The notes beneath the pieces are model-generated. The model had not been told where the DNA came from and ran no database searches. It saw only the letters and a program-made list of their open reading frames with translations. A program made the position numbers and the translations under genes. A stretch of 64,000 nt of DNA, taken from positions 169,072 through 233,071 of the forward strand of contig VBOZ01000029.1 of assembly GCA_005893305.1 (NCBI GenBank), given 5' to 3'. Shown one piece after another: positions 1 through 56,374 of the stretch (the first letter of the stretch is position 1; each line of letters begins with the position of its first letter). This DNA is from Candidatus Eiseniibacteriota bacterium (lineage in GTDB: Bacteria > Eisenbacteria > RBG-16-71-46 > SZUA-252).

Positions 1-207
1 CAGGAGGACAGAGACGCTGTTCGCGTGCGACGTGACGAGATCCAGCGTGCCGTCCCCATTGAGATCTCCCACCTCGACGTGGCTGGGTTGGGATCCCGTA
101 GCGTACTGCGCCGGCGCTCCAAACGGCTGCCCCAAGGCTCCGCTTGGAATGAGCCCGATCAGGGAAATGGAGATGAGTAGCACGGTGGGCAGAGGGGTGC
201 GATTCAT
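1..207 (-). CDS. N-terminal fragment (gene runs off the window start) of a third FG-GAP repeat surface-protein paralog
   Basis: Minus-strand ATG at about 205-207 is preceded by AGGAGG. The N-terminus MNRTPLPTVLLISISLIGLIPSGALGQPF...DLNGDGTLDLVT has a signal peptide and an FG-GAP repeat. Nucleotides 1-180 are about 90% identical to 4393-4600, the 5' end of the paralog at 2551-4638. Confidence 0.75.
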   Translation of the reverse strand, partial: MNRTPLPTVLLISISLIGLIPSGALGQPFGAPAQYATGSQPSHVEVGDLNGDGTLDLVTSHANSVSVLL

Positions 208-293
208 GGCGAGTCCTCCTAGTGAGTAAGACCCTCCTCGCCTCGAATGCGGTGAAGTGCAAGTCCTTCACCGGACAAACACAAGCGTTGGCC

Positions 294-2360
294 CTACTTC
301 GTAAGCGTCACCTTCAGCACCGCGGACTGCGCTCCGCCGGCGAGCACCTGATCCGTTCTCACGAAGTAGATTCCCGACGATGCCTGCTGGTTCTGGTCAT
401 TCGCGCCGTCCCAACGCACCTCATGGGTGCCCGCCGCCGTCATCTCACCCTGCTTCAGCGTCCGAACGAGGCGGCCGTCCATCGAGTAGACGCGGAGCGT
501 GACCGGCCCCTCGCTCTTCACGGTGTATGAGATCGCCGTCTCTGGGTTGAACGGATTCGGTGAGGCCGATGTCATGATCGGTGCCGAGCCTGTGCCGCCG
601 GTTCGGAGGGTGACCGACTTCACGCCTTGGAGCGGCGCGGTCCCCGACGTTGTCTGGACCTCCCCGGCGACGATGATGTTCACGGTGCTGTTATTCGGAG
701 CACCGCTGAGCAGGTCCCGGACACACGATGTGGCGAAGCTGATCTGGTAGTCGGGTACGCCGTTCAGATCCATGTCGCCGATGGTACCCGTGCCAACCCG
801 GGTGTCGGCGGCGCACTCGGTGACCGCGCCGGGGGTCGGGTAGTCGGTCTTCAGGCGGAGCGTAGCGGCGTGTATCGATGAGTACGGCATCATGGTCTCC
901 TCGATGGCAACCTTGGTGGATCCCCTTCCGGTCGAGACATCGAGGACGGTGCCGTTGTTCTTGAGGACGACCGCGACCGGGACATCGGATCGGACCGTTG
1001 CGGTCGTGGAGTCGTCATCGGAAAGGCCGCCCGCGTCGGCCACATGGAGCATCACCGGGAAGACCCCCTCGGCGGGGTATGCGTGCGCGGGGGTCGGGCC
1101 AGAGGCGGTCTTGCCGTCCCCGAAATCCCAAGTGAACGCAAGCGCATCGCCGTTCGGATCGGACGAGGCGGTACCGTTGAAGTCGATGGACTGAGTCGCG
1201 AGCCCTGCGTACGGTCCGCGGGCGTTTGCCTCCGGAGCGCGGTTTCCGACGTTCAGCAGTACCGCCACGGAATTGGATGACGGGAGCGTGACCACGAGGT
1301 CGAGCCGCGAGTCGCCGTTCAGATCCGCCGGCGCGATGAATCCCGGGGCACCTCCCGTCTCGTACACATACTGCGCGTCTCTCCGCCCGTCGCCGGCGCC
1401 GGTGAGGATTGCGACGCCGCCGCTGTCCGGCAACGTCGATAGATCCAACAGCCCGTCGCCGTTGAAGTCGCCCTTGCCGAGCACACCGGGCGCGAAGGGA
1501 GACCCCCAGTCGATCACATCTCCGAACGTTCCGTCGCCGTTGCCCAACAGCACCGACAGGATGTGGACGTCGAAAACGACCGTTGCAAGATCCGATTTTC
1601 GGTCCCCGTTCAAGTCGCCGACCGCGATGATGTCCGGATCCCCGCCGGAGGGCACGTGGTAGACGGGCGTATATCCGCCGTAGCCAAAGGTGCCGTCGCC
1701 GTTTCCAAACAGCACCGTGATCCCTCCACCCTTCGAAAACGCGATATCCGGCTTCGAGTCTCCGTTCAGGTCGGTCACGGCGACCGAATAAGCGACGCCC
1801 CAGCGATCGTCGTCCGTCCTTGGCGCGAAGGTGCCGTCCCCATTGCCGAGAAAGACGGACACGATGCCAAAACCCACCACGACGACGTCCGGCTTAGAGT
1901 CCGCGTTCAGATCGGCGATCGCGAAAAACGTGGATGGTCCCTGTGGATTTGCCGTGGGGAAGTCGGCCCTCTCGCGAAACGACCCGTCGCCGTTGCCGAG
2001 GAGAACCGAGACGGCGGCTTGACCCAAGGTCAGCACGTCCAAGATCCCGTCCTGGTTCATGTCACTGACGAGGACACGGAACGGCCCCGTCCCCGTTGCG
2101 TATTCCCTGTGCGGCTGGAAGGCCCCGGTCCCGTCGCCCAAGAGGACGGAGACGATGCCCGATCCCTCGTGTGCCGTGACGAGATCCAGAGCGCCGTCCC
2201 CGTTGAGGTCGCCTACCGCAGCGTCCCCGGGGCCGAGCGCCGTTTCGAACTGCGTCGGCGCTCCGAACGGCTGGCCCGAAGCTCCGCTCGGGGCGAGTTC
2301 GATCAGCGAAATGGAAAGGAGCAGAGCGGTGGGTAGAGAGGTCCGATAGATTCCATTCAT
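294..2360 (-). CDS. Secreted FG-GAP/VCBS-repeat protein with a PKD-like domain and a C-terminal FlgD-Ig-like/T9SS-type sorting domain
   Basis: 688-aa ORF with signal peptide MNGIYRTSLPTALLLSISLIELAPSGASG and at least seven DLNGD(G/S)xxDL FG-GAP repeats. The C-terminus reads NPFNPETAISYTV...LRVYSMDGRLVRTL...HEVRWDGANDQ...SGIYFVRTD. AGGAGG ribosome-binding site upstream. Confidence 0.85.
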   Translation of the reverse strand: MNGIYRTSLPTALLLSISLIELAPSGASGQPFGAPTQFETALGPGDAAVGDLNGDGALDLVTAHEGSGIVSVLLGDGTGAFQPHREYATGTGPFRVLVSDMNQDGILDVLTLGQAAVSVLLGNGDGSFRERADFPTANPQGPSTFFAIADLNADSKPDVVVVGFGIVSVFLGNGDGTFAPRTDDDRWGVAYSVAVTDLNGDSKPDIAFSKGGGITVLFGNGDGTFGYGGYTPVYHVPSGGDPDIIAVGDLNGDRKSDLATVVFDVHILSVLLGNGDGTFGDVIDWGSPFAPGVLGKGDFNGDGLLDLSTLPDSGGVAILTGAGDGRRDAQYVYETGGAPGFIAPADLNGDSRLDLVVTLPSSNSVAVLLNVGNRAPEANARGPYAGLATQSIDFNGTASSDPNGDALAFTWDFGDGKTASGPTPAHAYPAEGVFPVMLHVADAGGLSDDDSTTATVRSDVPVAVVLKNNGTVLDVSTGRGSTKVAIEETMMPYSSIHAATLRLKTDYPTPGAVTECAADTRVGTGTIGDMDLNGVPDYQISFATSCVRDLLSGAPNNSTVNIIVAGEVQTTSGTAPLQGVKSVTLRTGGTGSAPIMTSASPNPFNPETAISYTVKSEGPVTLRVYSMDGRLVRTLKQGEMTAAGTHEVRWDGANDQNQQASSGIYFVRTDQVLAGGAQSAVLKVTLTK

Positions 2361-2465
2361 CGCGTCCTCCTAGCAGCCGCCCCCCAGCCCTGAAGGTGGC
2401 CGCGGCTCAAGTCCCCGTCCCGGTAGGAGGGGACGCGACGGATCGTACGGGACGCGCGTGCGAAC

Positions 2466-2507
2466 CGGTATTCGCTGGATTCCAGATCCGGCGATGAAAA
2501 ACTACTG
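2466..2507 (-). promoter_or_regulatory. Copy (a) of a conserved ~45-nt intergenic element (plus strand ATTCG..GGAT..GGCGATGAAAAACTAC), about 110 nt upstream of the minus-strand FG-GAP gene start
   Basis: Aligns with the copies at 4755-4799, 7844-7882 and 11408-11447, all in the same orientation relative to the downstream minus-strand genes. Confidence 0.5.
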
Positions 2508-2550
2508 ATGAGCCGGGCCGGGCGGTTTGGCCGCCTCCCCGGGCAATTCG

Positions 2551-4638
2551 TTATTTCGTAAGCGTTAGCTTCAGCACCGCGGACAGCTCCCTGTCGCCGA
2601 GCACCTGATCCGTCCTCACGAAGTAGATGCCCGACGAGACCGGCTCGCTCCGGTCGTTCGCGCCGTTCCACCACACTTCATGCGTGCCCGCCGTCGTCAT
2701 CTCTCCATGCTTCAGCGTCCGAATCAGGCGGCCGTCGATCGAGAAGATTCGCAGCGTAACCGGCCCCGCGCTGTTCACCGTGTACGAGATCGCCGTCTCC
2801 GGGTTGAACGGGTTCGGCGAGGCGGATGCGTGGATCGGCGCCGAGCTGTGGGCCGTGCGAACGGTGACCGTCTTCACGCCGCGGAGCGGCGCGGTGCCCG
2901 ACGAGGTCTCGACCTCTCCGGTGACGATGATGTTCGCCGTGGTGTTGTTCGGAGCCCCATCGAAGAGATCCCTGACACACGATTCGGCGAAGCTGATCAT
3001 GTAATCAGGTACACCATTCAGATTCATGTCGCCGAGAGTACTCGTGCCGGCCTTGATCTCGGCCGCGCACTCGGTGACGGTGCCGGGGGTAGGGTAGTCG
3101 GTCGTCAGGCGGAGTGAGGTGGCGACAATGGACGAGTAGGGGACCATGGCCTGCTCGACGGCCACCTTCGTGTATCCCCTCACCTTCCTGGCATCGAGGA
3201 CGGTTCCGTTGTTCTTGGCGATGATCGCGACCGGGACGTCGGATCGGACCGTGGCCGTCGTGGGGTCGTCGTCGGAGAGGCCGCCCGTGTCGGTGACCTG
3301 GAGGATTACCGGGAAGACGCCCTCCGCCGCGTAGGCATGCATGGGGGTCGGGCCCGTGGCCGTCCTGCCGTCTCCGAAGTCCCAGGCGTACGCCAGCGCG
3401 TCGCCGTCCGGGTCGGACGAGCCGGTACCGATGAACTCGATGCTCTGATTGACGAGCCCGGCGTACGGCCCTCGCGCGTTCGCCACCGGATAGCGGTTCC
3501 GAATGTTGAGCATTACGGCCACGGAATCGGCTCCTCGCAGGTTGGTGACAAGATCGAGCCGCCCGTCGCCGTCTAGATCTGCCGGCGCGGTGAACCCAGG
3601 AGGACCTCCCGCCGCGCACGCAACCTGGCCGTTTGTTCGGCCATCACCGGCCCCGAGGAAGACTTCGATGGCGTTCGGATTGGTGACCACAAGATCCAAG
3701 TGCCCGTCGCCGTTGAAGTCCCCCTTGGCAATATCATCTGTAGAGGATGACCCCCACTGGATGGGCTGCCCGAAACTACCGTCGCCATTGCCTAAGAGGG
3801 TAGCCATGACATCGATGTCGAAAACTCTCGTCGCCAGGTCCGTCTTACCGTCCCCGTTCAAGTCCCCGACCGCGATGATGTACGGTTCGCCGCCGGGGCG
3901 CGCAAGGGAGATTGCCGCGCCCCCGCAGCCCCGAAAGCTGCCGTCGCCATTCCCACACAACACAGTGACTCCACCGCCCTTCGGATACGCGAGGTCCTGA
4001 TTCGAGTCTCCGTTGAAATCAGCGACGGCGAGCGAATAAACCGGCCATCCCATATCGTTGTCCATCCTCGCGCCGAACGTGCCGTCTCCGTTTCCTAGGA
4101 AAATAGACAGGATGCCCCAGCCGGCCACGATGGCGTCCAGTTTTGAGTCGCCGTTTAGATCGGCTACCGCTAAGAGGAATGGCGATTGGCCGTAAACGCC
4201 CGCTCTCGTGGCGTAGTCGGTCCTTGGGCCGAACGACCCGTCCCCGTTGCCGAGGAGGACAGAGAGGGCCGAGCCGCTCAGAATCAGCAAGTCGAGCTTC
4301 CCGTCCTGGTTTAGATCACCCATCCGGAGCGAGCCGGTGACGCCCGTTGGATAGTCCACGTGCGCCCCGAAAGCCCCGTTTCCGGTGCCCAGGAGGACAG
4401 AGACGCTGTTCGCGTGCGACGTGACGAGATCCAGCGTACCGTCCCCATTGAGATCTCCCACCTCGACGTGGCTGGGTTGGGACCCTGTTGCGTAGTGCGC
4501 CGGCGCTGCGAACGGCTGGCCCGGCGCTCGGCTTGGAGAGAGTCCGATCAGGGAGACGGAGAAGAGCAGGATGGCGGATAGCGTGTGGTTCCTCGGCTCG
4601 CCCCCCGCAGGGCGGCGCCGATTGGAGAAACCGATCAT
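2551..4638 (-). CDS. Secreted FG-GAP/VCBS-repeat protein with a PKD-like domain and a C-terminal FlgD-Ig-like/T9SS-type sorting domain (tandem paralog)
   Basis: Full-length paralog of 294-2360, co-linear with it. The internal Met (MIGFSNRRR...) matches the paralog N-termini; the track ORF runs to 4725. Confidence 0.8.
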   Translation of the reverse strand: MIGFSNRRRPAGGEPRNHTLSAILLFSVSLIGLSPSRAPGQPFAAPAHYATGSQPSHVEVGDLNGDGTLDLVTSHANSVSVLLGTGNGAFGAHVDYPTGVTGSLRMGDLNQDGKLDLLILSGSALSVLLGNGDGSFGPRTDYATRAGVYGQSPFLLAVADLNGDSKLDAIVAGWGILSIFLGNGDGTFGARMDNDMGWPVYSLAVADFNGDSNQDLAYPKGGGVTVLCGNGDGSFRGCGGAAISLARPGGEPYIIAVGDLNGDGKTDLATRVFDIDVMATLLGNGDGSFGQPIQWGSSSTDDIAKGDFNGDGHLDLVVTNPNAIEVFLGAGDGRTNGQVACAAGGPPGFTAPADLDGDGRLDLVTNLRGADSVAVMLNIRNRYPVANARGPYAGLVNQSIEFIGTGSSDPDGDALAYAWDFGDGRTATGPTPMHAYAAEGVFPVILQVTDTGGLSDDDPTTATVRSDVPVAIIAKNNGTVLDARKVRGYTKVAVEQAMVPYSSIVATSLRLTTDYPTPGTVTECAAEIKAGTSTLGDMNLNGVPDYMISFAESCVRDLFDGAPNNTTANIIVTGEVETSSGTAPLRGVKTVTVRTAHSSAPIHASASPNPFNPETAISYTVNSAGPVTLRIFSIDGRLIRTLKHGEMTTAGTHEVWWNGANDRSEPVSSGIYFVRTDQVLGDRELSAVLKLTLTK

Positions 4639-4754
4639 GTCAGCCCCCCAGGCCAATCGGGAGCGGCCGCCCGGCGGATCCCCCGACCCCCACGGCCGTT
4701 CCTCGACGTTGGTTTCCTTCGCCACTTGAGTGTAGGACGGGCCGCCGGGGAGGA

Positions 4755-4799
4755 CTATTCGGAAGAATACGGAATCGAGGTAGAAAATCTACGTAGCGG
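4755..4799 (-). promoter_or_regulatory. Copy (d), the most diverged, of the conserved intergenic element (CTATTCGGAAGAATACGGAATCGAGGTAGAAAATCTACG)
   Basis: About 120 nt upstream of the 2551-4638 gene start. Aligns to the other copies with the pattern ATTCG-N-GGA-N-CGGA-N-GAGGWWGAAAAWCTACG. Confidence 0.45.
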
Positions 4800-4905
4800 G
4801 GTGCCGCCGGGGTTGATAGCCAAAACAAGTTGCGACGGGGCACCGATGGGAGTAAGAAGTAGGTGGTAGGGCATTGGGGGACGTGCCGGTTTCTTACCTC
4901 GGAGG

Positions 4906-6105
4906 TTGGAGATCATGGTGAAGTGGATACTCTCAGCCCTGCTTACGGTTGTCGCGGTCGCAGGCCTCACGCAAGCGGCGGATGCGCAGTACATGTACAT
5001 GGACGCGAACGGGAACGGGGTTCATGACACGGGCGATCGGCTGAACGCGAACAACGACTCGACCTTCGTGGATATCTACTTGAGCACGACGCTGAACCGC
5101 AACGGGAGCGCGGTCACCTGCAATACCCTGCCCGCTGCCGCGATGGACATCAACTCGTACGCCTTCAGCATCGTGGCGACCGGCGGCACCGTGACGTATG
5201 GGACCTACGTCAACCGGCAGCCGGCTGCGTTCCCGAACCACGCAGAGGTGCTGAACCCGGGGGACGGGACGTACAAGGACGCGTTCTACTCGTTCTCCTA
5301 TACGCCGGGGGGCCTATTTAGGCTTGGGACGTTGACGATCACCGGCACGAGCGGGGCTCCCGCGATCACATTTGTGGATTTGATCACTGGGGCCCAGGAC
5401 TATACGTCGTTCGGGACGGAGTGTCCTGGGATAGGCGGCGACAACACGTACCGGCTGGACGGGCCGAACACGCAGGCCTTCTACGGCGTCCCTGGGGACT
5501 GGTTCGACACCGACGGCCTCGCCCGGAGCACGACCGCGGTCTCCGTCGCGCTCCAGGACGCGCAGGCCGAGGCAGGGCTTGTTCGCCTTCGCTGGATCGT
5601 CCCGGACGCGCGGAGCTCGGTCTCGATGGTGGAGCGGCGTACCGCGATCAGCGATTGGGCGACTCTGGGGCAGGCCGACGTGGAGAGCGGCGGCTATGTC
5701 CGTTACGAGGACCGGTCGGTGACCCCGGGCGAGCGCTACGCGTACCGGCTCTTCGTCCAGTCTCCGACGGACAATGGGTATTCGAACGAGGTATGGGTCT
5801 TGGTGCCCTCGGACGCGGCTGCTCCGCTCGCATTGCAGCTCGACCCCGTCTACCCGAATCCGTTCCAAACCGAGACCCGGTTCAACTTCGCGGTTCCTCG
5901 GTCCGGATCCGTCCGGCTGACCATATTCGACGTGCGCGGACGACGGGTCGCGACGGTTGTGGAGCGCGCGTTGCCCTCGGGTTGGCGCTCCGTGGCATGG
6001 AATGGCAGGGACCACTTGGGCAGGCCCGTTCCGTCGGGCACGTACTTCGCCAAGCTGGAACAGGCCGGAAAAGTCCAGATGCGGAAGATCGTCGTCGCGA
6101 GGTAA
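4906..6105 (+). CDS. Secreted hypothetical protein with a fibronectin-III-like segment and a C-terminal FlgD-Ig-like/T9SS-type sorting domain
   Basis: Signal peptide MEIMVKWILSALLTVVAVAGLTQAADA. C-terminus reads DPVYPNPFQTETRFNFAVP..VRLTIFDVRGRRVATV...WNGRDHLGRPVPSGTYFAKL. Confidence 0.75.
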   Translation: MEIMVKWILSALLTVVAVAGLTQAADAQYMYMDANGNGVHDTGDRLNANNDSTFVDIYLSTTLNRNGSAVTCNTLPAAAMDINSYAFSIVATGGTVTYGTYVNRQPAAFPNHAEVLNPGDGTYKDAFYSFSYTPGGLFRLGTLTITGTSGAPAITFVDLITGAQDYTSFGTECPGIGGDNTYRLDGPNTQAFYGVPGDWFDTDGLARSTTAVSVALQDAQAEAGLVRLRWIVPDARSSVSMVERRTAISDWATLGQADVESGGYVRYEDRSVTPGERYAYRLFVQSPTDNGYSNEVWVLVPSDAAAPLALQLDPVYPNPFQTETRFNFAVPRSGSVRLTIFDVRGRRVATVVERALPSGWRSVAWNGRDHLGRPVPSGTYFAKLEQAGKVQMRKIVVAR

Positions 6106-6135
6106 CGCCGGGGCCGCATCTCAGCGGCAGCGCCG

Positions 6136-6900
6136 CTAGGCGCCGTACAGCCCGTTCGAGCTGAACGGATACCCCTGGCCGTCGCGGAAGAGCATCCTTT
6201 GGAGCGAGACCTCCCGCGCGCTCGGCTCCACGAGCTGGTCGGGGAAGAGGATCGTCTGTCCGACCTCCACGGCGACGATATCCGTCTTCCCCACACCACA
6301 TAGGTGGCTGCCCCAAGCCTCGCCACCCTCGCCGAACATGCAGCGAATCAGGATTCCGCGGCCGAAGACGAGCTTCCCGCCGATGGTCGTGCACCGCGTG
6401 GAATATCTCCCGTCGGTCGTAATCTCCGCCACGAGCGTGGCGGGCACGCGGACGGATAGCCCGAATTCACGCGGCTCGCCGTCTTCCTGGCGCCCCAGGT
6501 TGCAGGCTTCGGCCAGCGGTGCACCCGAGGAATCGCGTATCTGAATCTGCAGAGGCGAGTGCCGGGTAATTCGAAGCGGCGGAGTCGACGATGCCGCCAC
6601 GAACCATTCACCCGGAGGGATGAGGATGGCCTCGGTCGCGATGCTCCCGCCATCTCGGTTGGCATGCTTCTTGGCAAACGTGAGCATCGCGCTGACCCCC
6701 GGCAGCACGATCGCCCCTTCGAGGGTCAACGTAGAGCCAAGCGGAGCGCCATGACCCGCCTCGCGGATCGAGGCCTGCACCTGAAGCGGCATCGAGACGT
6801 TCGCGGCGATCCGAACCGTCCGGTTGACATCCGGGTCCCGGTGGGGGATCCGGCGAAACGCGGGCGCTATCGACTGAGACATCACGTGGGTTGACATCAT
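6136..6900 (-). CDS. Hypothetical protein B of a duplicated two-gene cassette; paralog of 8043-9002; faint PilZ-like motif arrangement
   Basis: 254-aa ORF lying 9 nt downstream of A. Residues shared with B' include SMP.QVQ, TL.GA.VL, LIPPGEWF, TIGG.LVF.RGIL..CM and IGQT...PDQ. An RRIPHR motif is followed about 37 aa later by TLTLEGAIV. Confidence 0.65.
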   Translation of the reverse strand: MMSTHVMSQSIAPAFRRIPHRDPDVNRTVRIAANVSMPLQVQASIREAGHGAPLGSTLTLEGAIVLPGVSAMLTFAKKHANRDGGSIATEAILIPPGEWFVAASSTPPLRITRHSPLQIQIRDSSGAPLAEACNLGRQEDGEPREFGLSVRVPATLVAEITTDGRYSTRCTTIGGKLVFGRGILIRCMFGEGGEAWGSHLCGVGKTDIVAVEVGQTILFPDQLVEPSAREVSLQRMLFRDGQGYPFSSNGLYGA

Positions 6901-6909
6901 GACTGGCTC

Positions 6910-7752
6910 CTAATGAACGGGATACGCCGGCGCCACGGTGGAAGTGGAAGCCGTGACGCAACCGTTTTGCATCTCGGCGAGGCCCGGCTGCGCCCTTCCC
7001 AGGAGCGACTCGCCTCCCGTGATCTGCCCGATCCCATCCAGGAATGCGAGGTAGATCCAGGAGTCTCGGCCCAGTGGGGACCGAAGCGGCCGCGGGGGAA
7101 GATGAATGATGGTGTCGTCCGGGACGAGCGGCACTTCGACGGCCGCCTCCTGCTGGCCCGCGTCGACTCCCGATGAGTCGCTCGGCGACAGCGTGAGCCG
7201 GGCCCTGATGCCGGACCGGATGGAGACGTCGCCGGACATCGCGAGGTCGGAGATCGGATTCAGATCGAACACCTCGCCCCTGACGACCATCGCGTCGACG
7301 AAGAGGTTGAGTGGAAGAGACGGGTTCAGGTCGAACGGCCCCTGATCGCACCGGCCCAAGCGGGTCCGGGGGGCGAGCGGGGATCCGCCGCCGACGTACT
7401 GGATCCAGAGATCCGGTGGACGCCCCACTTCCGCCCAGTCGAGTGCCTGAGGCTGAATCGACAGGGATCGGTCGTGGAGGAGCGCGATCCGCTCGCTGGA
7501 TGTTTCCTCGAGCGGAAGGGAAGTGCCGCGCTCGACCCTGCGGTAAGTCAGCCGCGCGCCGAATCCACCGGCCTTGATCGTGCCTCCCACCGTCACGCGC
7601 CCGCCCGGTCCGCCGCGGAGCGCGCCCGGGCTCATCGTGGGCTCGATGTGCAGGGCCATGGGGATCGTGACCGGCACGAATCGCATGATCCGCAGTACAG
7701 CTGAACTCGTCACGTCCAAGGGTTGCTCGCGCTGCGTGATCACCCTTGCCAT
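6910..7752 (-). CDS. Hypothetical protein A of the duplicated two-gene cassette; paralog of 9018-9917
   Basis: Start MARVITQ is preceded by AAGGAG. Residues shared with A' include LRIMRF.PVTIP, VGGTI.A.GFGARLTY, SERIALLHDR, GRPPDLWIQ, TRLGRCDQGPFDL and PIGRDSWIY. The track ORF extends to 7995, probably as a read-through artefact. Confidence 0.7.
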   Translation of the reverse strand: MARVITQREQPLDVTSSAVLRIMRFVPVTIPMALHIEPTMSPGALRGGPGGRVTVGGTIKAGGFGARLTYRRVERGTSLPLEETSSERIALLHDRSLSIQPQALDWAEVGRPPDLWIQYVGGGSPLAPRTRLGRCDQGPFDLNPSLPLNLFVDAMVVRGEVFDLNPISDLAMSGDVSIRSGIRARLTLSPSDSSGVDAGQQEAAVEVPLVPDDTIIHLPPRPLRSPLGRDSWIYLAFLDGIGQITGGESLLGRAQPGLAEMQNGCVTASTSTVAPAYPVH

Positions 7753-7843
7753 TGTGTGTCTCCTTTCATCACCTGGCGATTCGGCCGCCAACCGCTCCTC
7801 GTCCCCATACGGAAGGAAGTATCGCCACGGGGAGAAGGAGCCG

Positions 7844-7882
7844 CCATTCGATGGATTGCGGACTTGAGGATGAAAAACTACG
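7844..7882 (-). promoter_or_regulatory. Copy (b) of the conserved intergenic element (CCATTCGATGGATTGCGGACTTGAGGATGAAAAACTACGG) between B' and A
   Basis: About 95-130 nt upstream of the A start codon. The downstream ATACTTCCTTCCGTATGG also matches the sequence around the TPR gene start codon (ATACTTCCTTACGTATGG). Confidence 0.5.
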
Positions 7883-8042
7883 GATGGTTCGGGTTGCGAT
7901 TTGCAAGGAGAACGCGGGCCGAGTTGGCGAATGCGATGAAGATCGCGCCCAAAAGGGGTGAGCGCCGGATGCTTGGTCGCCACTCCCGACGACATGGGTC
8001 ATCCGGCGCTCCGGAAGGCATCCATTTTTTGCGAGTTTCAGA

Positions 8043-9002
8043 TCAAATAGAACCACCTCCTCTCCAAGGTTTCCCGTTCCGAGCACCCGCGCGAGGGACG
8101 AATCGCCCCAGGGGGTGCCCGAGTCCGTCCAAGAAGGAGATCGCGCGCAACGGATGAGCGGGTGTCGTCCTCGACATCGGCTGATCGGGGATGCGAACAG
8201 TCTGGCCGATCGGAATCGCAACGGCTTCGGTGGCGGCGACCAGGGGCTCGTCGTCGTACCGATCCGGCTCGCGCCACGGATACATGCAGTGCGCGAGGAT
8301 GCCGCGGAGAAACACGAGGTTGCCGCCAATGGTGGACCGAGAGCTCGGCACGAGAGACAAGGTGTCTGTCGCGATCTCCACCGTCACCGCCACGGGGACG
8401 TGGAAGGAAAGCGCGAATCCATGCGGCTCTCGGTCACAAGGTCCGACCTCGCAGGTCTCGGAGATGCGGGTGCCGTCCCCGTCGTGGAATCGAATGCGGA
8501 TCGGCGCACCGGGATCGATCGGGGCGCGGCTGGCCGCCGCCGCGACCGTGAACCATTCGCCGGGCGGGATCAGCGTCATCGTGTTCTGTTTGAAGCGGTC
8601 CGCGTTGAAATGACTCTGGTGGGCGTCCCGTCCGAAGCTGAGTACCGCAGCCAGCCCCGCGAGGACGACGGCGCCATCCAGGGTCACCCGGAACCCATGG
8701 GGATCGTGGCATTCCGTGAGGCGGACCGATCCCTGTACCTGTACGGGCATCGAGAGAGCAGCGGAGAAGCGCAGCATCCGAGACCGGTCCGAGCCGGGGT
8801 GAATTCTCTGTCGGTTCGATTCAGGTACGAGTGGGTGCGCCGCGTGCATTCTCTCCATGAGTCCTCCCGTTCCTATCGCGAATGCGTGAGCTCCATCTCT
8901 CGCATCGATCAATCTTCCGTGGCGATGCAGCCGGCGGTTCCGGTCTCGTGGGCGCGTAGCCCCGCTGGGGACACTCGGAGAGCTATAGGTCGGGTCCGCC
9001 AC
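8043..9002 (-). CDS. Hypothetical protein B' (paralog of 6136-6900)
   Basis: Clear paralogy to B. The true start may be the internal MERMHAAHP (about 8858), which has a GGGAGG ribosome-binding site; the longer track ORF begins 15 nt after the A' stop. Confidence 0.6.
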   Translation of the reverse strand: MADPTYSSPSVPSGATRPRDRNRRLHRHGRLIDARDGAHAFAIGTGGLMERMHAAHPLVPESNRQRIHPGSDRSRMLRFSAALSMPVQVQGSVRLTECHDPHGFRVTLDGAVVLAGLAAVLSFGRDAHQSHFNADRFKQNTMTLIPPGEWFTVAAAASRAPIDPGAPIRIRFHDGDGTRISETCEVGPCDREPHGFALSFHVPVAVTVEIATDTLSLVPSSRSTIGGNLVFLRGILAHCMYPWREPDRYDDEPLVAATEAVAIPIGQTVRIPDQPMSRTTPAHPLRAISFLDGLGHPLGRFVPRAGARNGKPWRGGGSI

Positions 9003-9017
9003 ACGGGTTCCTGGACG

Positions 9018-9917
9018 CTAGCGACCGCCACGGTCCAAATGCGTCCTCCTCTCCAGCAGCCCGTCCGGGCTGACCAATGAGCTTTCCACGACGCCGGGCT
9101 CCGCTTTCCCGAGTAACGACTCTCCGCCCGTCGGCCGGCCCGCTCCGTCCAGAAACGTGACGTAGATCCAGGAATCGCGCCCGATCGGCCCGTGCAGCAT
9201 CCGCCGCGGCAGCTGGACCTCGGTGCCGCCTGGAAACAACGACACATCGGCAGGCGTGGTCGGATCGCCCGGCCTCGGGGCCGGACCGCCGTTCTCGGTG
9301 AGGGTGAATCGCGCGACGATTCCGGTCCGGATGCAGATCTCCCCGGCCAGGGCGAGCATCGGCATGGAATAGGGATCGGATCTCTCCGGTCTCAGGATGG
9401 CTGCGTCCACGGAGATTCCCAGGGTGAGGTTTGGGGTCAGGTCGAATGGACCTTGGTCGCAACGGCCCAGGCGGGTGAGGCCCGTGACCGGGGTGCCTCC
9501 GCCGTCGAGGAACTGGATCCAAAGATCCGGAGGACGGCCCGCGACGGGGCGGTCCACGGCTCGCGGCGGGAGCGTCAGGGTCCGGTCGTGAAGGAGAGCA
9601 ATTCGCTCGCTGGTGACCTCATCGGCCGGCGTGGTGCCGCTTCCACGTTGGCGATAGGTAAGCCGGGCGCCGAAGCCTTCGGCCGTGATTGTTCCCCCCA
9701 CCGCGACGCGCACGCCCGGTCGGACGACGAGAGTTCCGGAGTTGACCTTGGGTTCAATGCGCATCGGCACCGGAATCGTGACGGGCATGAATCGCATGAT
9801 CCGAAGGGCGACGACGCCCGAATCCCGCGGGGATCGTCCTCGATGCGTCGAAAATTCATCCATGATGGAACTCCCTTTCCCGGCTGGCGGGCCTCCCCGC
9901 CTATCTTGCGTTTTCAT
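9018..9917 (-). CDS. Hypothetical protein A' (paralog of 6910-7752)
   Basis: 299-aa ORF. Its start overlaps the 3' end of the upstream sugar-transferase gene by about 17 nt, suggesting translational coupling. Confidence 0.7.
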   Translation of the reverse strand: MKTQDRRGGPPAGKGSSIMDEFSTHRGRSPRDSGVVALRIMRFMPVTIPVPMRIEPKVNSGTLVVRPGVRVAVGGTITAEGFGARLTYRQRGSGTTPADEVTSERIALLHDRTLTLPPRAVDRPVAGRPPDLWIQFLDGGGTPVTGLTRLGRCDQGPFDLTPNLTLGISVDAAILRPERSDPYSMPMLALAGEICIRTGIVARFTLTENGGPAPRPGDPTTPADVSLFPGGTEVQLPRRMLHGPIGRDSWIYVTFLDGAGRPTGGESLLGKAEPGVVESSLVSPDGLLERRTHLDRGGR

Positions 9918-10644
9918 CGTTTGCCAGCACCTGAATCGTCCTGGCCATGATCTTCAGATCGAGAAGGAAGCAGTAGTTTCGGATGTAATGGATGTCGTAG
10001 CGCAACTTCCGCCGTGCCGCCCTCGTCGACTGCGTGTAGCCGTTGCTGACCTGCGCGAGGCCGGTGATGCCGGGCTTCACGGTGCAGCGACTCGAAAAGC
10101 CCGGGATCTCCTTGTCCAGCTTGGCCAGGAAGATCGGCCGCTCGGGGCGTGGACCGACGACGCTCATCTCGCCTCGAAGCACATTCCAGAACTGGGGCAG
10201 CTCGTCGAGGTGCGTGCGACGGAGAAACGCCCCGACGCGAGTCACTCTCGCGTCGTTCGTGGCCGCCCAGACCGGCCCCGTCTCCTGCTCCGCGTTCGCG
10301 ACCATGCTCCGGAACTTGAACATCAGAAACGGACGGCCGCGGAGCCCGGCCCGTTCCTGCCTGAAGAGGACCGGTGAGCCCGATTCCAGCCAGATCGCCA
10401 CGGCGACCACGACGTAGATCGGGAGGAGCGCCACGAGGCAAGTCACCGCGATCACGAGATCGACGGCTCGCTTCGCGAGATCCCTCTCCTTCGGGTGTGC
10501 AAGCCTCCACGGCCGTCCCGCGGCAGTCACCGCTGCATTGTTTGGCTCGGTTCCCATACTCTTGGAGACGATAGGAACGGGACGCCGGGCGAGCCATTCG
10601 GTGATACCCCGATTCGCCGAGGGGAAAATTACGGAGGCGGGCAT
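9901..10644 (-). CDS. Polyprenyl-phosphate sugar phosphotransferase (initiating bacterial sugar transferase, WbaP/EpsL-type C-terminal catalytic domain)
   Basis: Contains the family's core PVLFRQERAGLRGRPFLMFKFRSM...ELPQFWNVLRGEMSVVGPRP, with one transmembrane helix upstream. Its start ATG overlaps the TPR gene stop (TGATG). Confidence 0.85.
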   Translation of the reverse strand: MPASVIFPSANRGITEWLARRPVPIVSKSMGTEPNNAAVTAAGRPWRLAHPKERDLAKRAVDLVIAVTCLVALLPIYVVVAVAIWLESGSPVLFRQERAGLRGRPFLMFKFRSMVANAEQETGPVWAATNDARVTRVGAFLRRTHLDELPQFWNVLRGEMSVVGPRPERPIFLAKLDKEIPGFSSRCTVKPGITGLAQVSNGYTQSTRAARRKLRYDIHYIRNYCFLLDLKIMARTIQVLANDENAR

Positions 10645-11372
10645 CAGCGCACCTCCGATGCGCGGAGCGCGCGCAGAAGCGTCCGCTCCAACGCGGGGTT
10701 GCCCAATCGCTGCGCGAGCGAGATGCCCAACGCGAGCGTCCGCGTGTCATCAGGCCGGAGCTCCATGGCGAGCTGAAACGCTGAGTACGCTTCGCCGAGT
10801 CGGCCGTCCTCCAGCGCCATGCCCAGGATCCCCGTCGCGATCCACTCGAAGTCGGGCAGGAGCGATCCGGTGCGCTTGAGGTCGGCCAGGGCCGCTCCGT
10901 AGTTCCGATCCAGCTCATGGGCGAGCGCGCGCAACGCATAGAGCTCGGGCGCGGCTCCCGACCGTCGGAGCGGCGGCGTCAGCGCCGCCGCGGCGCGGGC
11001 CGGATCTCCAACCAAGCAGCTCACTCGACCCACCAGCATGGCCGCCTCGGAGTTCAAGCTGTCGACGGCGAGCGCCCGCTGCCCCCAGTCCAGCGCCGCC
11101 GAGTCGTCACCGAAGTTCTCGTACAGAGAGGCGACTCGAGACAACGCGTAGCTCGAGTGGGGATCCAGCGTGACGAGGGACACGGCCCAGGCGATCGCCT
11201 TCAAGCCATCGCCTTTCGCCGCCGCCAGCTCGGAGCGGACCTGACACTCGATCGGGGTCGGAGGATCTGCCGCCGACGAGGACGCGCCGGCGGCGATGGC
11301 CGTGGCCACGAGGGCCGGCACCATGGCCGCTTTCCATCCACCGTTGAAGCTTTGTTTGCGCCCGGTATCCAT
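10644..11372 (-). CDS. Secreted tetratricopeptide-repeat (TPR) protein
   Basis: Signal peptide AAMVPALVATAIAAGASSSAAD followed by TPR-like helical repeats (A..Y...G....A......AL). Confidence 0.7.
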   Translation of the reverse strand: MDTGRKQSFNGGWKAAMVPALVATAIAAGASSSAADPPTPIECQVRSELAAAKGDGLKAIAWAVSLVTLDPHSSYALSRVASLYENFGDDSAALDWGQRALAVDSLNSEAAMLVGRVSCLVGDPARAAAALTPPLRRSGAAPELYALRALAHELDRNYGAALADLKRTGSLLPDFEWIATGILGMALEDGRLGEAYSAFQLAMELRPDDTRTLALGISLAQRLGNPALERTLLRALRASEVR

Positions 11373-11407
11373 ACGTAAGGAAGTATTGCGGCAGATGCGT
11401 CGCGCCC

Positions 11408-11447
11408 ACCATTCGGTGGACTACGGCCCGGGATAGGAAAAACTACC
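11408..11447 (-). promoter_or_regulatory. Copy (c) of the conserved intergenic element (CCATTCGGTGGACTACGGCCCGGGATAGGAAAAACTACC) between the response-regulator stop and the TPR start
   Basis: About 40-75 nt upstream of the TPR ATG. Contains a CCACC-ATTC-GGTGG hairpin. Confidence 0.5.
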
Positions 11448-11509
11448 TAGTGGGGAAGAGGGGGAGGGAGGGACGAGGCTTGAGGGCAAAAAAACGGCCG
11501 TGCGGAGGG

Positions 11510-12142
11510 CTAGGGGATGATGAGGCCCCTTCGTATCGCGTAGCGGACCAACCCGGCGGTCTCGTGGATGTCGAGCTTCTCCATGATATGAGCCCGGTGT
11601 GCCTCGACGGTCCGCGCGCTGATATCGAGCGCTACGCCGATCTCCTTGGACGACCGGCCCTCCGTGATGAGCTGCAGCACCTCGCGCTCCCGCGGGGTCA
11701 AGGGGTCGTCCGGCAAATCGACCTTGGAGATGCAGGCCTCTACGACCGCCTTGGAAATGCCGGGGCTCAGATAGACCGAGCCCTGGGCGACCTCGCGGAT
11801 GGCCTGCACTAGGTGCGCGGTCGCCTGCGTCTTGAGGAGGTACCCGCGGGCGCCGGCCCGAAGCGCCTCGATGACGTAGGGGTCCTCCGTGTGCATCGTG
11901 AGGACGATCACGCGCGTCTCGGGCGAGCACTGAAGGACGCTTCGCGTCGTCTCGAGCCCGTTCAGCTGAGGCATGCCCAGGTCCAGCACCGCGATGTCGG
12001 GCTTCAACTCCTTGGCCAGGCGGACGGCCTCGCGGCCGTCCGGAGCGGATCCGACGACCTTGAAGCCTTCCGCGTTGAGAAGTGTGGCCAGGCCGTCCCG
12101 GATCACGGCGTGGTCATCGGCCAAAAGGACGCTCTCACGCAC
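11510..12142 (-). CDS. NarL/LuxR-family response regulator (REC + HTH_LuxR)
   Basis: Receiver motifs LLADDH...D (phospho-acceptor Asp in DIAVLDLGMP) and a C-terminal LTPREREVL.L...G.S.KEIG..L.IS..TVE.H LuxR helix-turn-helix. Start overlaps the histidine-kinase stop. Confidence 0.9.
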   Translation of the reverse strand: MRESVLLADDHAVIRDGLATLLNAEGFKVVGSAPDGREAVRLAKELKPDIAVLDLGMPQLNGLETTRSVLQCSPETRVIVLTMHTEDPYVIEALRAGARGYLLKTQATAHLVQAIREVAQGSVYLSPGISKAVVEACISKVDLPDDPLTPREREVLQLITEGRSSKEIGVALDISARTVEAHRAHIMEKLDIHETAGLVRYAIRRGLIIP

Positions 12143-13073
12143 GGATCGTCTCCAGCGGGATCGTCACCAGGAGCTCCGTTCCCTTGCGCTCGCCGGATTG
12201 GATCTCCAGTGTCCCCGAGAGCGGAGCGATCCGCTCGCGAATTCCAATCAATCCCAGACCGCGGCCCCCTTGACGCGTGCCCTTGGCCGCGGGGGGAAGC
12301 CCCACCCCGTCGTCGCGGATCGAGCATCGAACCAGGCCGTCCTCGTGCAGCAGCGTGATCGTGACGCGAGAGGCCTGGGCGTGCCGGGCCGCGTTGTTCA
12401 GCGCTTCCTGGACGATCCGATAGAGCGTCGTCTCGACGACCGGCGGCAGCCGTTCCTCGGTCGAGCCCTTGACGATGACGGCAATCCCCGCGCGCCGGGA
12501 AACTCCGTCCCCCAGGAACTGGATCGCGGGGACGAGGCCCAGGTCGTCGAGGATCAGCGGGCGGAGCTCGTGCGAAATCCGGCGGAGCTGCTCCTCGATC
12601 CGATCCAGAAGGCCGCGCACGTCTTTGAGCCGCTGCCTCGACGAAGGAGCGAGGTCGCGGCCGACCTCGTGGAGGGCGAGGTGAACCGAGGCCAGAAGCT
12701 GCCCGGCGTCGTCGTGGAGCTCGCGCGCGATCCGCTGCACCTGCTCCTCGAGGATCTCATTGATCCGTCGAAGCGCCGAGTTGGCGTCGCTTACCCCGCG
12801 ATGGGCCATCTCGAACGGCGAGAACGACTCCCGCGCGAAGCCCTCCGCGGCGCGGAGGATTGCCCCGAACTTCTCGGGAATGCCCGCCTCCTGGCAGACG
12901 GCGAGGAGCGCGGCGTGCTGGAGCGCGGCCATCTCGAGCGCGCCGACTCCGGAAGCGAGCGCCTCTCGGCCCAGCTCGTACGCCGCGTTGAGGGACGCTT
13001 CGCCTCCGCCGGCGACATGCCCGCGGAGTGCGGCCGCGTACCGCGATTCGAATGCAGGCGTGCCGTTATTCAT
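12135..13073 (-). CDS. Cytoplasmic sensor histidine kinase (HisKA_3 + HATPase_c) with an RsbU_N-like N-terminal domain
   Basis: H-box ELHDDAGQLL and an ATPase region with N, G1 and G2 boxes. The N-terminal ~100 aa (AAYELGREALASGVGALEMAALQHAALLAV) resembles the RsbT-binding N-domain of RsbU. ATGA overlap with the upstream phosphatase gene. Confidence 0.8.
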   Translation of the reverse strand: MNNGTPAFESRYAAALRGHVAGGGEASLNAAYELGREALASGVGALEMAALQHAALLAVCQEAGIPEKFGAILRAAEGFARESFSPFEMAHRGVSDANSALRRINEILEEQVQRIARELHDDAGQLLASVHLALHEVGRDLAPSSRQRLKDVRGLLDRIEEQLRRISHELRPLILDDLGLVPAIQFLGDGVSRRAGIAVIVKGSTEERLPPVVETTLYRIVQEALNNAARHAQASRVTITLLHEDGLVRCSIRDDGVGLPPAAKGTRQGGRGLGLIGIRERIAPLSGTLEIQSGERKGTELLVTIPLETIRA

Positions 13074-56299: not shown

Positions 56300-56374
56300 T
56301 GGTAGCGCTACGGGGAATCGAACCCCGGTTTGATGGCTGAGAACCATCCGTCCTAACCCCTAGACGATAGCGCC
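56300..56374 (-). tRNA. tRNA-Glu (anticodon CUC)
   Basis: Cloverleaf read by hand: acceptor GGCGCTA/TAGCGCT (G1-U72), D-arm TCGTCTAGGGGTTAGGAC as in tRNA-Glu, anticodon stem GATGG/CCATC with loop TTCTCAG, T-arm CGGGG-TTCGATT-CCCCG, encoded CCA. Confidence 0.85.

What the first reader, a model, noticed from the sequence alone, without database searches (positions are those of the whole stretch)
1..4725. Tandem triplication of FG-GAP/PKD surface proteins with near-identical 5' ends (recent duplication or gene conversion)
Three co-linear minus-strand paralogs. The first ~180 nt of the window (5' end of the truncated copy) are about 90% identical to 4393-4600, including a ~100-nt near-perfect identical stretch; the same block recurs at 2222-2360. 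All three share signal peptides and DLNGDGxLDLV repeats. The two complete copies end in the same C-terminal sorting domain. Such arrays suggest variable cell-surface adhesins, and they are a likely site of assembly collapse.
Basis: seen in the sequence. Interest (0 to 1): 0.5.

Follow-up and report, generated by a model that had tools for sequence, protein, structure and literature searches.

The report
Tandem secreted propeller genes trading segments
Three neighbouring, long-diverged genes for secreted propeller-type binding proteins in an uncultured soil bacterium (Candidatus Eisenbacteria) swap short stretches of sequence and vary in copy number between strains; this is a real but ordinary kind of gene-family evolution.

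Summary
Three co-linear minus-strand paralogs are present: copy C at 2551-4638, copy B at 294-2360, and copy A from 207 off the window start. Each has a signal peptide, a 7-blade FG-GAP propeller, a PKD domain, an unassigned ~140-aa domain and a T9SS type-A/FlgD-Ig C-terminal domain.

The three-gene array appears unchanged in five assemblies, so it is not a collapse artefact in this window.

The near-identical 5' block is a gene-conversion tract, not a recent duplication.
- A and C share a ~425-nt tract with dS 0.087, against 0.45 elsewhere.
- B is at its most divergent in that same stretch (dS 0.8-1.0).
- Trees for the propeller, middle and C-terminal segments disagree with each other.

Strains differ in two ways. 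Copy C has at least three mosaic alleles. One strain, 97% identical at this locus, lacks copy A. Its junction lies in a 42-nt stretch identical between the 3' ends of B and A, as expected from unequal homologous recombination.

More distant relatives carry one or two (or more) copies. Paralog dN/dS is about 0.4, so all three copies are probably functional.

One public assembly has an A-like tract in copy C that no other assembly shows. Another has a scaffold gap in the same region.

This is a new member of a known kind, of low to moderate interest.

The parts
1..207 (-). Copy A, first 69 codons only. The gene runs off the window start. The full gene is 686 aa (L001 12154-14214).
   Evidence: The ATG is at 207. 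The fragment has FG-GAP hits. The full copy was recovered from public contigs and is identical over the shared 207 nt.
1..93 (-). The part of the A/C conversion tract on the copy A side that lies inside the window. The tract continues off the window.
   Evidence: There is 1 mismatch in 93 nt against 4390-4482, then 21 mismatches in the next 95 nt. The tract spans alignment columns 157-592.
208..293 (-). B-A spacer of 86 nt, with the ribosome-binding site AGGAGG of copy A at 215-220.
   Evidence: Read directly from the sequence. CTAGGAGGAC is shared upstream of A and B.
294..2360 (-). Copy B, 688 aa. Layout: signal peptide, 7-blade FG-GAP propeller (about 30-370), PKD (373-457), unassigned domain (about 459-598), T9SS type-A/FlgD-Ig C-terminal domain (about 599-688).
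   Evidence: ORF and domain hits. The AlphaFold2 model has pLDDT around 90 for the propeller and around 85 for the C-terminal domain. Foldseek matches FG-GAP propellers (fungal GlcNAc lectins, ITFG2, integrin alpha-V). The PKD matches collagenase ColH PKD at E = 1.6e-21.
294..335 (-). A 42-nt 3' end (39 coding nt plus the stop codon) identical between copies B and A. It holds the crossover point of the two-copy haplotype found in a related strain.
   Evidence: The second gene of L086 is B-type up to 43 nt from its end, and the downstream 200 nt is 99% A-type.
2361..2550 (-). C-B spacer of 190 nt.
2551..4638 (-). Copy C, 695 aa from the ATG at 4638. An upstream in-frame GTG at 4725 would give 724 aa. 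Same architecture as B.
   Evidence: gene calls in three assemblies start at MIGFSN.
4059..4482 (-). The copy C side of the A/C conversion tract (C gene positions about 157-580, propeller blades 1-3).
   Evidence: A/C identity is 95.0% here and dS is 0.087, against 80.2% and 0.454 elsewhere. B against A or C has dS 0.82-0.96 in the same columns.
4178..4367 (-). 18 sites where the window's copy C differs from the copy C of assembly L001, which equals copy A at all 18. A third strain (L086/L093) is A-like at 10-11 of them.
4906..6105 (+). A divergently transcribed 396-aa neighbour carrying the same kind of C-terminal sorting domain. It is syntenic in related loci but is not a paralog of A, B or C outside that domain.
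   Evidence: TIGR04183 scores 37.5 bits and FlgD_ig 33.7 bits. Synteny is seen in L001, L086 and L088.

Best explanation
This is an old tandem family of three genes (order C-B-A on the minus strand) in a Candidatus Eisenbacteria soil bacterium.

Each gene encodes an exported protein. Its parts, in order, are a Sec signal peptide, a seven-bladed calcium-loop FG-GAP (integrin/fungal-lectin-like) beta-propeller, a PKD domain, an unassigned beta-rich domain, and a type IX secretion (type A, FlgD-Ig-like) C-terminal domain. The proteins are most likely exported and displayed or released at the cell surface as ligand- or glycan-binding proteins. That function is inferred.

Because the copies lie head to tail, homologous recombination acts on them in two ways, and both are shown here.

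1. Non-reciprocal patch transfer (gene conversion). It has homogenised about 425 nt of blades 1-3 between A and C, and the last ~130 nt between A and B. It has left different mosaic alleles of C in different strains.

2. Unequal crossing-over at short identical stretches, which changes copy number. A strain 97% identical over this locus has lost copy A through a crossover inside the 42-nt identical 3' end of B and A.

All three copies remain under purifying selection and are probably functional. The near-identical 5' ends are therefore a conversion tract, not a sign of recent duplication or of mis-assembly in this window.
For: Array and assemblies. The same C-B-A array occurs in the window and in four other assemblies: ENA ERZ28573540, ERZ27293280, ERZ27315254 and JGI 3300009137. 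B is identical in three of them. The window's copy C allele is present in the two k=141 assemblies, and in the JGI contig apart from one further mismatch. The longest run identical between A and C is only 62 nt, so 141-mers keep the copies apart.

Conversion.
- Overall nt identity is 83% for A/C, 76% for A/B and 74.5% for B/C.
- In alignment columns 157-591, A/C is 95% identical with dS 0.087 (99.3% and dS 0.009 in the L001 allele), against 80% and dS 0.454 elsewhere.
- A/B and B/C have dS 0.96 and 0.82 in the same block, so sequence constraint does not explain the identity.
- Fisher p = 1.3e-15. Site permutation gives p of about 1.5e-4, and below 5e-5 for the L001 allele.

Incongruent NJ trees by segment.
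- Propeller: A+C 100%, and A, B, C monophyletic 100%.
- Middle domain: A with L088_g1, 92%.
- C-terminal domain: A+B 94%, and L088_g1 with L088_g2, 88%.

Strain mosaics.
- The 18 window-versus-L001 differences over 12,360 nt all fall in copy C gene positions 272-461, and all equal A in L001.
- L086 and L093 carry a third pattern of A-like patches.
- They also carry clustered B-like patches.

Copy number.
- L086 is 96.97% identical to L001 over 12,091 nt and has C and B followed directly by EamA.
- Its junction lies in the 42-nt A/B identical stretch, and the downstream 200 nt is 99% A-type.
- L087 has one copy, L088 two and L089 at least two.

Selection. Paralog dN/dS is 0.38-0.42 overall and 0.11-0.32 in the C-terminal domain. 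All ORFs are intact.

Protein.
Against: - No read data were available, so the tract alleles rest on assemblies only.
- The L001 allele occurs in one assembly and could come from assembler read-correction or bubble merging.
- The samples behind the assemblies may not all be independent. Several appear to come from the same soil project.
- The direction of conversion (A to C or C to A) is not resolved. B matches the window's C at 7 of the 18 variable sites and matches A at 5.
- Surface display and ligand binding are inferred from domains only.
- No core T9SS machinery was identified in the window. There is only a C25-family protein with 85 bits to the PorU model, whose cut-off is 420.
- The PKD and middle domains were modelled poorly (pLDDT 22-60).
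- Copy A might exist elsewhere in the L086 genome.
Confidence: 0.85

Rival explanations
1. Recent duplication. A and C, or all three copies, arose recently, and the near-identical 5' block is leftover identity that has not yet diverged.
For: A and C are the closest pair overall at 83% nt. They group with 100% support in the propeller half.
Against: Outside the tract, A/C dS is 0.45 and identity 80%. Inside it dS is 0.087, a five-fold step within a single ORF. Orthologs of B and C in a 97%-identical strain are 98% and 96% identical to them, so the paralog split long predates the strain split. In the middle domain A groups with a copy from another lineage (92%), and in the C-terminal domain with B (94%).
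Confidence: 0.03
2. Assembly artefact. The apparent copies, or the near-identical block, come from a chimeric or collapsed short-read assembly of strain mixtures.
For: One assembly (L001) has a different, fully A-like tract in C, with a run of about 289 nt identical to A, and that allele is seen nowhere else. L088 has a 272-N scaffold gap in the same part of its second copy. Four contigs of the window-type strain all end at the same point about 850 nt beyond copy A.
Against: The window's array and its C allele recur in two k=141 MEGAHIT assemblies and, apart from one further mismatch in C, in a JGI assembly. A/C identical runs in that allele are at most 62 nt, shorter than k. The three copies differ by 17-25% over most of their length, have intact ORFs and have paralog dN/dS around 0.4. 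The two-copy junction in L086 also comes from a k=141 contig, and its 42-nt identical stretch is shorter than k.
Confidence: 0.05
3. Selective constraint. Blades 1-3 of A and C are kept identical because both must bind the same partner, with no DNA exchange between them.
For: The tract lies in the putative ligand-binding propeller.
Against: Synonymous sites are homogenised as well (dS 0.087 against 0.45-0.50). B is most divergent exactly there, with dN 0.32. Alleles of C differ among strains by patches that match A or B.
Confidence: 0.02
4. Programmed cassette-type variation. One copy is the expressed locus and the others serve as donors in a dedicated, frequent conversion system, as in pilE/pilS, vlsE or tprK.
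For: There are at least three mosaic alleles of C in closely related strains, while B and A are nearly invariant among the same assemblies. C against its L086 ortholog has dN/dS 0.81 in the propeller, and the differences are clustered.
Against: All three copies have a start codon and a signal peptide and are intact ORFs under purifying selection, and A and B are preceded by a ribosome-binding site. There are only two potential donors. No G-quadruplex motif, homopolymer or short-repeat tract occurs in 1-5200. No Rfam element occurs in 1-10000. The organism is a free-living soil bacterium with no obvious adaptive immune pressure.
Confidence: 0.08

Closest known systems
Tandem paralog clusters diversified by homologous recombination, such as the Staphylococcus aureus lpl lipoprotein-like cluster (Tsuru & Kobayashi 2008, PMC2568036)
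   Same: Both have same-orientation tandem paralogs for exported proteins. Both have short conserved stretches inside the ORFs that serve as recombination sites. Both show incongruent phylogenies for different parts of one ORF, and rearrangements among strains of one species (abstract of PMC2568036). Here, copy number also differs among strains.
   Different: The protein family and phylum are different. This array has only three copies. The crossover seen here lies at the extreme 3' end rather than in a central conserved region. The evidence comes from metagenome assemblies, not from finished isolate genomes.
Gene conversion and concerted evolution in bacterial multigene families (general phenomenon, from my own knowledge: tuf, rrn, Opa, Santoyo & Romero-type reviews)
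   Same: A tract of near-identity, including at synonymous sites, sits between otherwise diverged paralogs with sharp borders, and tree topology depends on the segment.
   Different: Nothing differs in mechanism. Only the genes and the lineage are new.
Type IX secretion cargo proteins with a type A C-terminal domain (TIGR04183 / PF18962, FlgD_ig-like)
   Same: The domain is C-terminal, about 70-90 aa long, and matches TIGR04183 at or near its cut-off. The proteins have an N-terminal Sec signal peptide. Several other proteins in the window have the same tail.
   Different: The scores are marginal (22.5-26.6 bits against a cut-off of 23). The secretion machinery was not seen. The lineage is Eisenbacteria, for which the full-text library held no paper mentioning type IX secretion.
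Seven-bladed FG-GAP propellers: integrin alpha head and the fungal GlcNAc lectins PVL, PAL and AAL2
   Same: There are seven FG-GAP blades with DxNxDGxxD calcium-type loops. Foldseek probability is 1.0 with 22-23% identity to PVL, PAL and AAL2. phmmer E-values to these lectins range from 2.7e-12 to 6.4e-6.
   Different: Sugar binding is not shown. The fusion to PKD, an unassigned domain and a T9SS tail is bacterial. In a 5.8-billion-protein collection, only seven 90%-identity clusters are more than 60% identical to B with this architecture.
Cassette-based antigenic variation (Neisseria pilE/pilS, Borrelia vlsE, Treponema tprK; from my own knowledge)
   Same: Segmental, non-reciprocal transfer between neighbouring paralogs produces mosaic alleles of a surface protein.
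   Different: There are no silent, promoter-less cassettes, no dedicated cis element was found, there are only two donors, and all copies are complete genes.

Membership tests
FG-GAP / integrin-like seven-bladed beta-propeller | Repeated FG-GAP units above the Pfam threshold | tested here: met
   PF13517 scores 149-150 bits (cut-off 26.9) with 6 stretches. PF01839 scores 75-102 bits.
FG-GAP / integrin-like seven-bladed beta-propeller | Seven blades forming a closed propeller with calcium-type DxNxDGxxD loops | tested here: met
   There are seven motifs per protein. The AlphaFold2 model has pLDDT around 90 over residues 30-370. Foldseek matches PVL, PAL, ITFG2 and integrin alpha-V with probability 1.0.
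PKD domain | A match above the Pfam gathering score, and a WDFGDG-type core | tested here: met
   PF18911 scores 75-77 bits (cut-off 27). WDFGDG is present in all copies. ColH PKD matches at E = 1.6e-21.
T9SS type A C-terminal sorting domain cargo | A C-terminal domain matching TIGR04183 or PF18962 at the curated cut-off | tested here: inconclusive
   TIGR04183 scores 26.6 (B) and 24.1 (A), both at or above 23, but 22.5 (C), which is below. PF18962 scores 17.5 for B, below 27. FlgD_ig PF13860 scores 37.1 (B, above 27) and 25.0 (C, below 27). The three tails are about 80-90% identical to one another at the nucleotide level, so they are one domain type.
T9SS type A C-terminal sorting domain cargo | An N-terminal Sec signal peptide | tested here: met
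   Each has a positively charged n-region, a hydrophobic core (11-aa hydropathy 2.25-2.84) and a small-residue site before QPF. No dedicated predictor was available.
T9SS type A C-terminal sorting domain cargo | The genome encodes the T9SS core (SprA/Sov, PorK/L/M/N, PorU, PorV) | not testable with these tools
   Only 64 kb was visible. A C25-family protein at 43678-47805 scores 85 bits against the PorU model (cut-off 420) and so does not qualify.
Gene conversion between paralogs | A tract of raised identity with diverged flanks, beyond chance | tested here: met
   21 of 423 sites differ inside the tract and 320 of 1620 outside (p = 1.3e-15). Permutation gives p of about 1.5e-4.
Gene conversion between paralogs | Homogenisation at synonymous sites that shared constraint does not explain | tested here: met
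   A/C dS is 0.087 in the tract against 0.454 outside. The third paralog has dS 0.82-0.96 in the tract.
Gene conversion between paralogs | Phylogenetic incongruence between segments | tested here: met
   A+C (100%) in the propeller, A+L088_g1 (92%) in the middle domain, A+B (94%) in the C-terminal domain.
Gene conversion between paralogs | Direct observation of the event, or read-level support for the alleles | not testable with these tools
   No reads were available. The alleles rest on assemblies.
Copy-number change by unequal homologous recombination | A related haplotype that differs by exactly one repeat unit, with the junction in a stretch identical between two copies | tested here: met
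   L086 lacks one 2,147-nt unit. Its gene is B-type up to 43 nt from the end and A-type downstream (99% over 200 nt). The junction lies in the 42-nt identical run.
Cassette-type programmed antigenic variation (pilE/pilS, vlsE) | One expression site plus silent, truncated donor cassettes | tested here: not met
   All three copies are complete ORFs with a start codon and signal peptide, A and B have a ribosome-binding site, and dN/dS is about 0.4.
Cassette-type programmed antigenic variation (pilE/pilS, vlsE) | A dedicated cis element (G4 motif) or phase-variable repeats | tested here: not met
   No G4 motif, homopolymer of 8 or more, or short tandem repeat occurs in 1-5200.

The most novel reading that the evidence does not exclude
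Copy C may be a preferred acceptor in a recurrent, fast segmental conversion process, with A and B as donors. This would diversify the ligand-binding blades of a surface lectin or adhesin within populations of a free-living soil Eisenbacterium. It would be functionally analogous to the antigenic-variation cassettes of pathogens, but driven by phage, predator or substrate pressure. The hints are at least three mosaic C alleles against nearly invariant A and B in the same assemblies. A second lineage (L088) also shows raised identity at the 5' ends of its two copies.
Probability: 0.1. Interest if true: 0.5.

Novelty: new member of a known kind. Interest (0 to 1): 0.25.

Why it matters
For genome annotation, the finding shows that the three-copy array in this window can be trusted. 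It also marks exactly where short-read assemblies of this locus go wrong: the A/C tract at 4059-4482 and the equivalent region in relatives.

For biology, it is a clean natural example from an uncultured soil phylum. Gene conversion and unequal crossing-over act together on a tandem family of exported binding proteins. A conversion tract, several mosaic alleles and a one-unit deletion with a mapped 42-nt crossover site are all visible among closely related strains.

It opens no new mechanism and settles no open question.

Tried and rejected
- The genome-contig scan with the A/B/C alignment chose generic FG-GAP and PKD peptide patterns. It returned only distant proteins (41% or less over the propeller, mixed phyla). 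It gave no close relative and no copy-number information.
- The one metagenome-contig scan, with a 34-nt tract sequence, found only two contigs. One was already known. The other, L093, was a second copy of the L086-type strain.
- Promoter and terminator scans gave nothing above shuffled expectation.
- Tandem-repeat, G4, short-repeat and Rfam scans found nothing relevant.
- The first Biopython bootstrap run timed out and was replaced by a numpy NJ bootstrap.
- L088's second copy first looked like a 5'-deleted pseudogene. It is in fact interrupted by a 272-N scaffold gap.
- A degenerate pattern for the 56-nt spacer similarity (repeat D12) was mis-specified and found nothing. That similarity is probably chance.
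- The structure model did not resolve the PKD or middle domains (pLDDT 22-60), so the ~140-aa middle domain stays unassigned.
- The literature search for Eisenbacteria plus type IX secretion returned no paper.
- Recent duplication, selective constraint and assembly artefact in the window were each considered and rejected (see rival explanations).
Full report
**1. What is in the window**

On the minus strand there are two complete ORFs. One is 294..2360 (688 aa, copy B). The other is 2551..4725, whose likely start is the ATG at 4638 (695 aa, copy C).

A third gene, copy A, starts at the ATG at 207. AGGAGG precedes it at 215-220, and it runs off the window start, so only 69 codons are visible.

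The repeat finder puts window 1-188 in register with 4390-4577 at 88% identity and with 2145-2332 at 70%. Base by base, 1-93 against 4390-4482 has a single mismatch, and 94-188 has 21.

The third occurrence, in B, is only ordinary paralog similarity.

**2. What the genes encode**

- Pfam finds FG-GAP_3 (149-150 bits, six stretches), FG-GAP, PKD_4 (75-77 bits) and FlgD_ig in B and C, and FG-GAP in the copy A fragment.
- NCBIfam TIGR04183 (T9SS type A sorting domain, cut-off 23 bits) scores 26.6 for B, 24.1 for the full copy A and 22.5 for C.
- Each protein has seven DxNxDGxxD motifs.
- Each has an N-terminal hydrophobic core (hydropathy 2.25-2.84) ahead of a small-residue site before QPF, consistent with a Sec signal peptide.
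- An AlphaFold2 model of B is confident for the propeller (residues about 30-370, pLDDT around 90) and the C-terminal domain (around 85). It is not confident for the PKD or the ~140-aa middle domain.
- Foldseek matches seven-bladed FG-GAP propellers: ITFG2, integrin alpha-V and the fungal GlcNAc lectins PVL, PAL and AAL2 (22-23% identity to the lectins).
- phmmer against PDB sequences finds collagenase ColH PKD (E = 1.6e-21) and a Psathyrella GlcNAc lectin (5mb4, E = 2.7e-12), with PVL itself at E = 5.7e-8.

The middle domain (B residues about 459-598) has no family assignment.

The window holds several other proteins with the same kind of tail: 4906-6105, 43678-47805 (C25 peptidase plus FG-GAP) and 50670-53486. 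This tail is therefore a common export tag in this organism. Surface display and ligand or glycan binding are inferred, not shown.

**3. Source organism and how widespread the family is**

A search of 5.8 billion proteins found only seven 90%-identity clusters more than 60% identical to B with this architecture. The next hits are 30-46% identical and, in most cases, cover only the propeller. One cluster (P0003, which is copy A) is named by NCBI as coming from a Candidatus Eisenbacteria MAG.

**4. Is the array real?**

Exact-protein look-ups recovered the locus from other assemblies:
- ENA ERZ28573540 scaffold_80 (L001),
- ERZ27293280 k141 (L002/L091),
- ERZ27315254 k141 (L085/L092),
- JGI 3300009137 (L003).

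All show C, B and a complete 686-aa copy A, followed by an EamA transporter gene.

B is identical in the window, L001 and L002, and has two mismatches in L003. A has at most one mismatch among L001, L002 and L003. The window's copy C allele equals that of the two k=141 assemblies, and equals L003 apart from one site.

In that allele the longest run identical between A and C is 62 nt. That is shorter than k=141, so the copies are separable in those graphs.

I find no sign of collapse in the window. I could not check reads, and some of these assemblies may derive from the same soil project.

**5. The near-identical 5' block is a conversion tract**

Codon alignments give overall nt identities of 83% (A/C), 76% (A/B) and 74.5% (B/C).

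| Comparison | Region | nt identity | dS |
|---|---|---|---|
| A/C (window allele) | columns 157-591 | 95.0% | 0.087 |
| A/C (window allele) | rest of gene | 80.2% | 0.454 |
| A/C (window allele) | rest of propeller | - | 0.502 |
| A/B | columns 157-591 | - | 0.96 |
| B/C | columns 157-591 | - | 0.82 |

The block is not a conserved part of the protein, because B is at its most divergent there.

The contrast between block and rest gives Fisher p = 1.3e-15. A GENECONV-style permutation of polymorphic sites gives p of about 1.5e-4 for A/C, about 0.004 for A/B, and is not significant for B/C.

Neighbour-joining trees by segment disagree with each other:
- propeller: A+C 100%, and A, B, C together 100% against L087 and L088 copies;
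- middle domain: A with L088_g1, 92%;
- C-terminal domain: A+B 94%, and L088_g1 with L088_g2, 88%.

The paralogs are thus old, and different segments have been homogenised between different partners. A recent duplication would give a uniform low dS, which is not what is seen.

**6. Variation between strains**

The window differs from L001 at 18 positions in 12,360 nt. All 18 lie in copy C gene positions 272-461 (window 4178-4367). At all 18, L001 carries the copy A base.

That leaves L001's C only 3 differences from A across the tract (dS 0.009). This allele occurs only in that one assembly. It may be a more recent conversion, or a product of assembler read-correction or bubble merging. I cannot decide which.

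Independent support for real patchiness comes from a third strain. L086 (ERZ27267855, k=141) is confirmed at 99.7% identity by JGI contig L093.
- Its C ortholog is A-like at 10-11 of the 18 sites.
- It also carries A's extra codon and further A-like bases beyond the tract.
- Its other differences from the window's C are clustered: 17 in alignment columns 781-840 and 13 in columns 901-960. They are partly B-like.
- Across the propeller, C against its L086 ortholog has dN/dS 0.81. B against its ortholog has 0.38.

**7. Copy-number variation**

L086 is 96.97% identical to L001 over 12,091 collinear nt. It has only the C and B orthologs, followed directly by EamA.

Its second gene is B-type up to 43 nt from its end. 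The downstream 200 nt is 99% identical to the sequence downstream of A, and only 29% identical to that downstream of B. A and B are identical over the last 42 nt including the stop codon (window 294-335).

This is what an unequal homologous crossover would leave after removing one 2,147-nt unit. A is far more diverged from B and C than the two strains are from each other, so loss in L086 is more likely than gain in the window's strain. That direction is inferred.

More distant relatives (about 72-82% nt identity):
- L087 has one copy.
- L088 has two. Their 5' 207 nt are 88% identical against 79% for the rest, and a 272-N scaffold gap sits in blades 1-3 of the second copy.
- L089 has at least two.

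**8. Selection and switches**

Paralog dN/dS is 0.38-0.42 overall, 0.40-0.51 in the propeller and 0.11-0.32 in the C-terminal domain. All ORFs are intact. All three copies are therefore probably functional.

No homopolymer, short repeat or G4 motif occurs in 1-5200, and no Rfam family matches in 1-10000. Promoter and terminator scans were uninformative. Nothing points to a dedicated switching device.

**9. Comparison with what is known**

The behaviour matches tandem paralog clusters shaped by homologous recombination. An example is the S. aureus lpl cluster, where conserved stretches inside the ORFs act as recombination sites and the 5' and 3' parts of one ORF give incongruent trees (PMC2568036). 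It also matches gene conversion and concerted evolution in bacterial multigene families in general (my own knowledge).

It does not meet the defining features of cassette-type antigenic variation. There are no silent cassettes and no cis element.

The protein is a new combination of known domains in a little-studied phylum. In a 5.8-billion-protein collection only seven 90%-identity clusters are more than 60% identical to B with this architecture.

**10. Verdict**

- The assembly caution applies to related assemblies, not to this window.
- This is a new member of a known kind, with interest about 0.25.
- The most novel reading still open is that C is a preferred acceptor in a recurrent diversification process. 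I give it a probability of about 0.1.

Noticed in passing
window 6136-9863 (-): Four tandem, highly diverged paralogs of 254, 280, 271 and 281 aa (19-36% identity). They have no Pfam or NCBIfam match and no evident signal peptide. Two homologs also lie directly upstream of the single FG-GAP/PKD gene in the distant relative L087, so the linkage is conserved. Their function is unknown.
   Followed up: partly
window 4906-6105 (+): A 396-aa protein with a clear T9SS type A C-terminal domain (TIGR04183, 37.5 bits) and an unassigned N-terminal part. It is transcribed divergently from copy C. It is syntenic in L001, L086 and L088 (86% nt identity in L088).
   Followed up: partly
window 43678-47805 (+): A 1375-aa protein combining Peptidase_C25, FG-GAP repeats and a FlgD_ig tail. 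It scores only 85 bits against the PorU sortase model (cut-off 420), so it is a C25-family cargo-like protein and not a demonstrated PorU.
   Followed up: partly
window 50670-53486 (+): A 938-aa beta-propeller-repeat protein that also ends in a FlgD-like domain. It is further evidence that this tail is a common export tag in this genome.
   Followed up: no
L001 about 15067, L002 about 15054, L003 8826, L085 about 12901 (outside the window, about 850 nt beyond copy A): Four contigs of the window-type strain from different assemblies all end within about 13 nt of each other inside the EamA transporter gene. In L086 the same gene is complete. The cause of this shared assembly break is unknown; it could be a strain-variable boundary or a repeat.
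   Followed up: partly
L088 3707-3978: A 272-N scaffold gap sits exactly in blades 1-3 of the second tandem copy in a different lineage. The two copies there are 88% identical over the 5' 207 nt and 79% over the rest. The same 5' region may therefore be homogenised, and hard to assemble, in another lineage too.
   Followed up: yes
window 2462-2517 and 7838-7893: A 56-nt direct similarity (73%) links the C-B spacer and the spacer upstream of one of the unknown paralogs. It is a two-copy match and probably chance. My follow-up pattern was mis-specified.
   Followed up: partly
window about 9901-12300; L086 1-4791: Upstream of the unknown paralogs lie a Bac_transf sugar transferase, a TPR protein and a LuxR-type response regulator with a HisKA_3 kinase. 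In L086 a STAS/SpoIIE/anti-sigma partner-switching module lies further upstream again. This neighbourhood is conserved between the two strains. Whether it is functionally linked to the array was not examined.
   Followed up: no
window 56300-56484 (-): tRNA-Glu(CTC) and tRNA-Gln(CTG) genes lie side by side. A glutamate--tRNA ligase gene is at 47857-49143.
   Followed up: no
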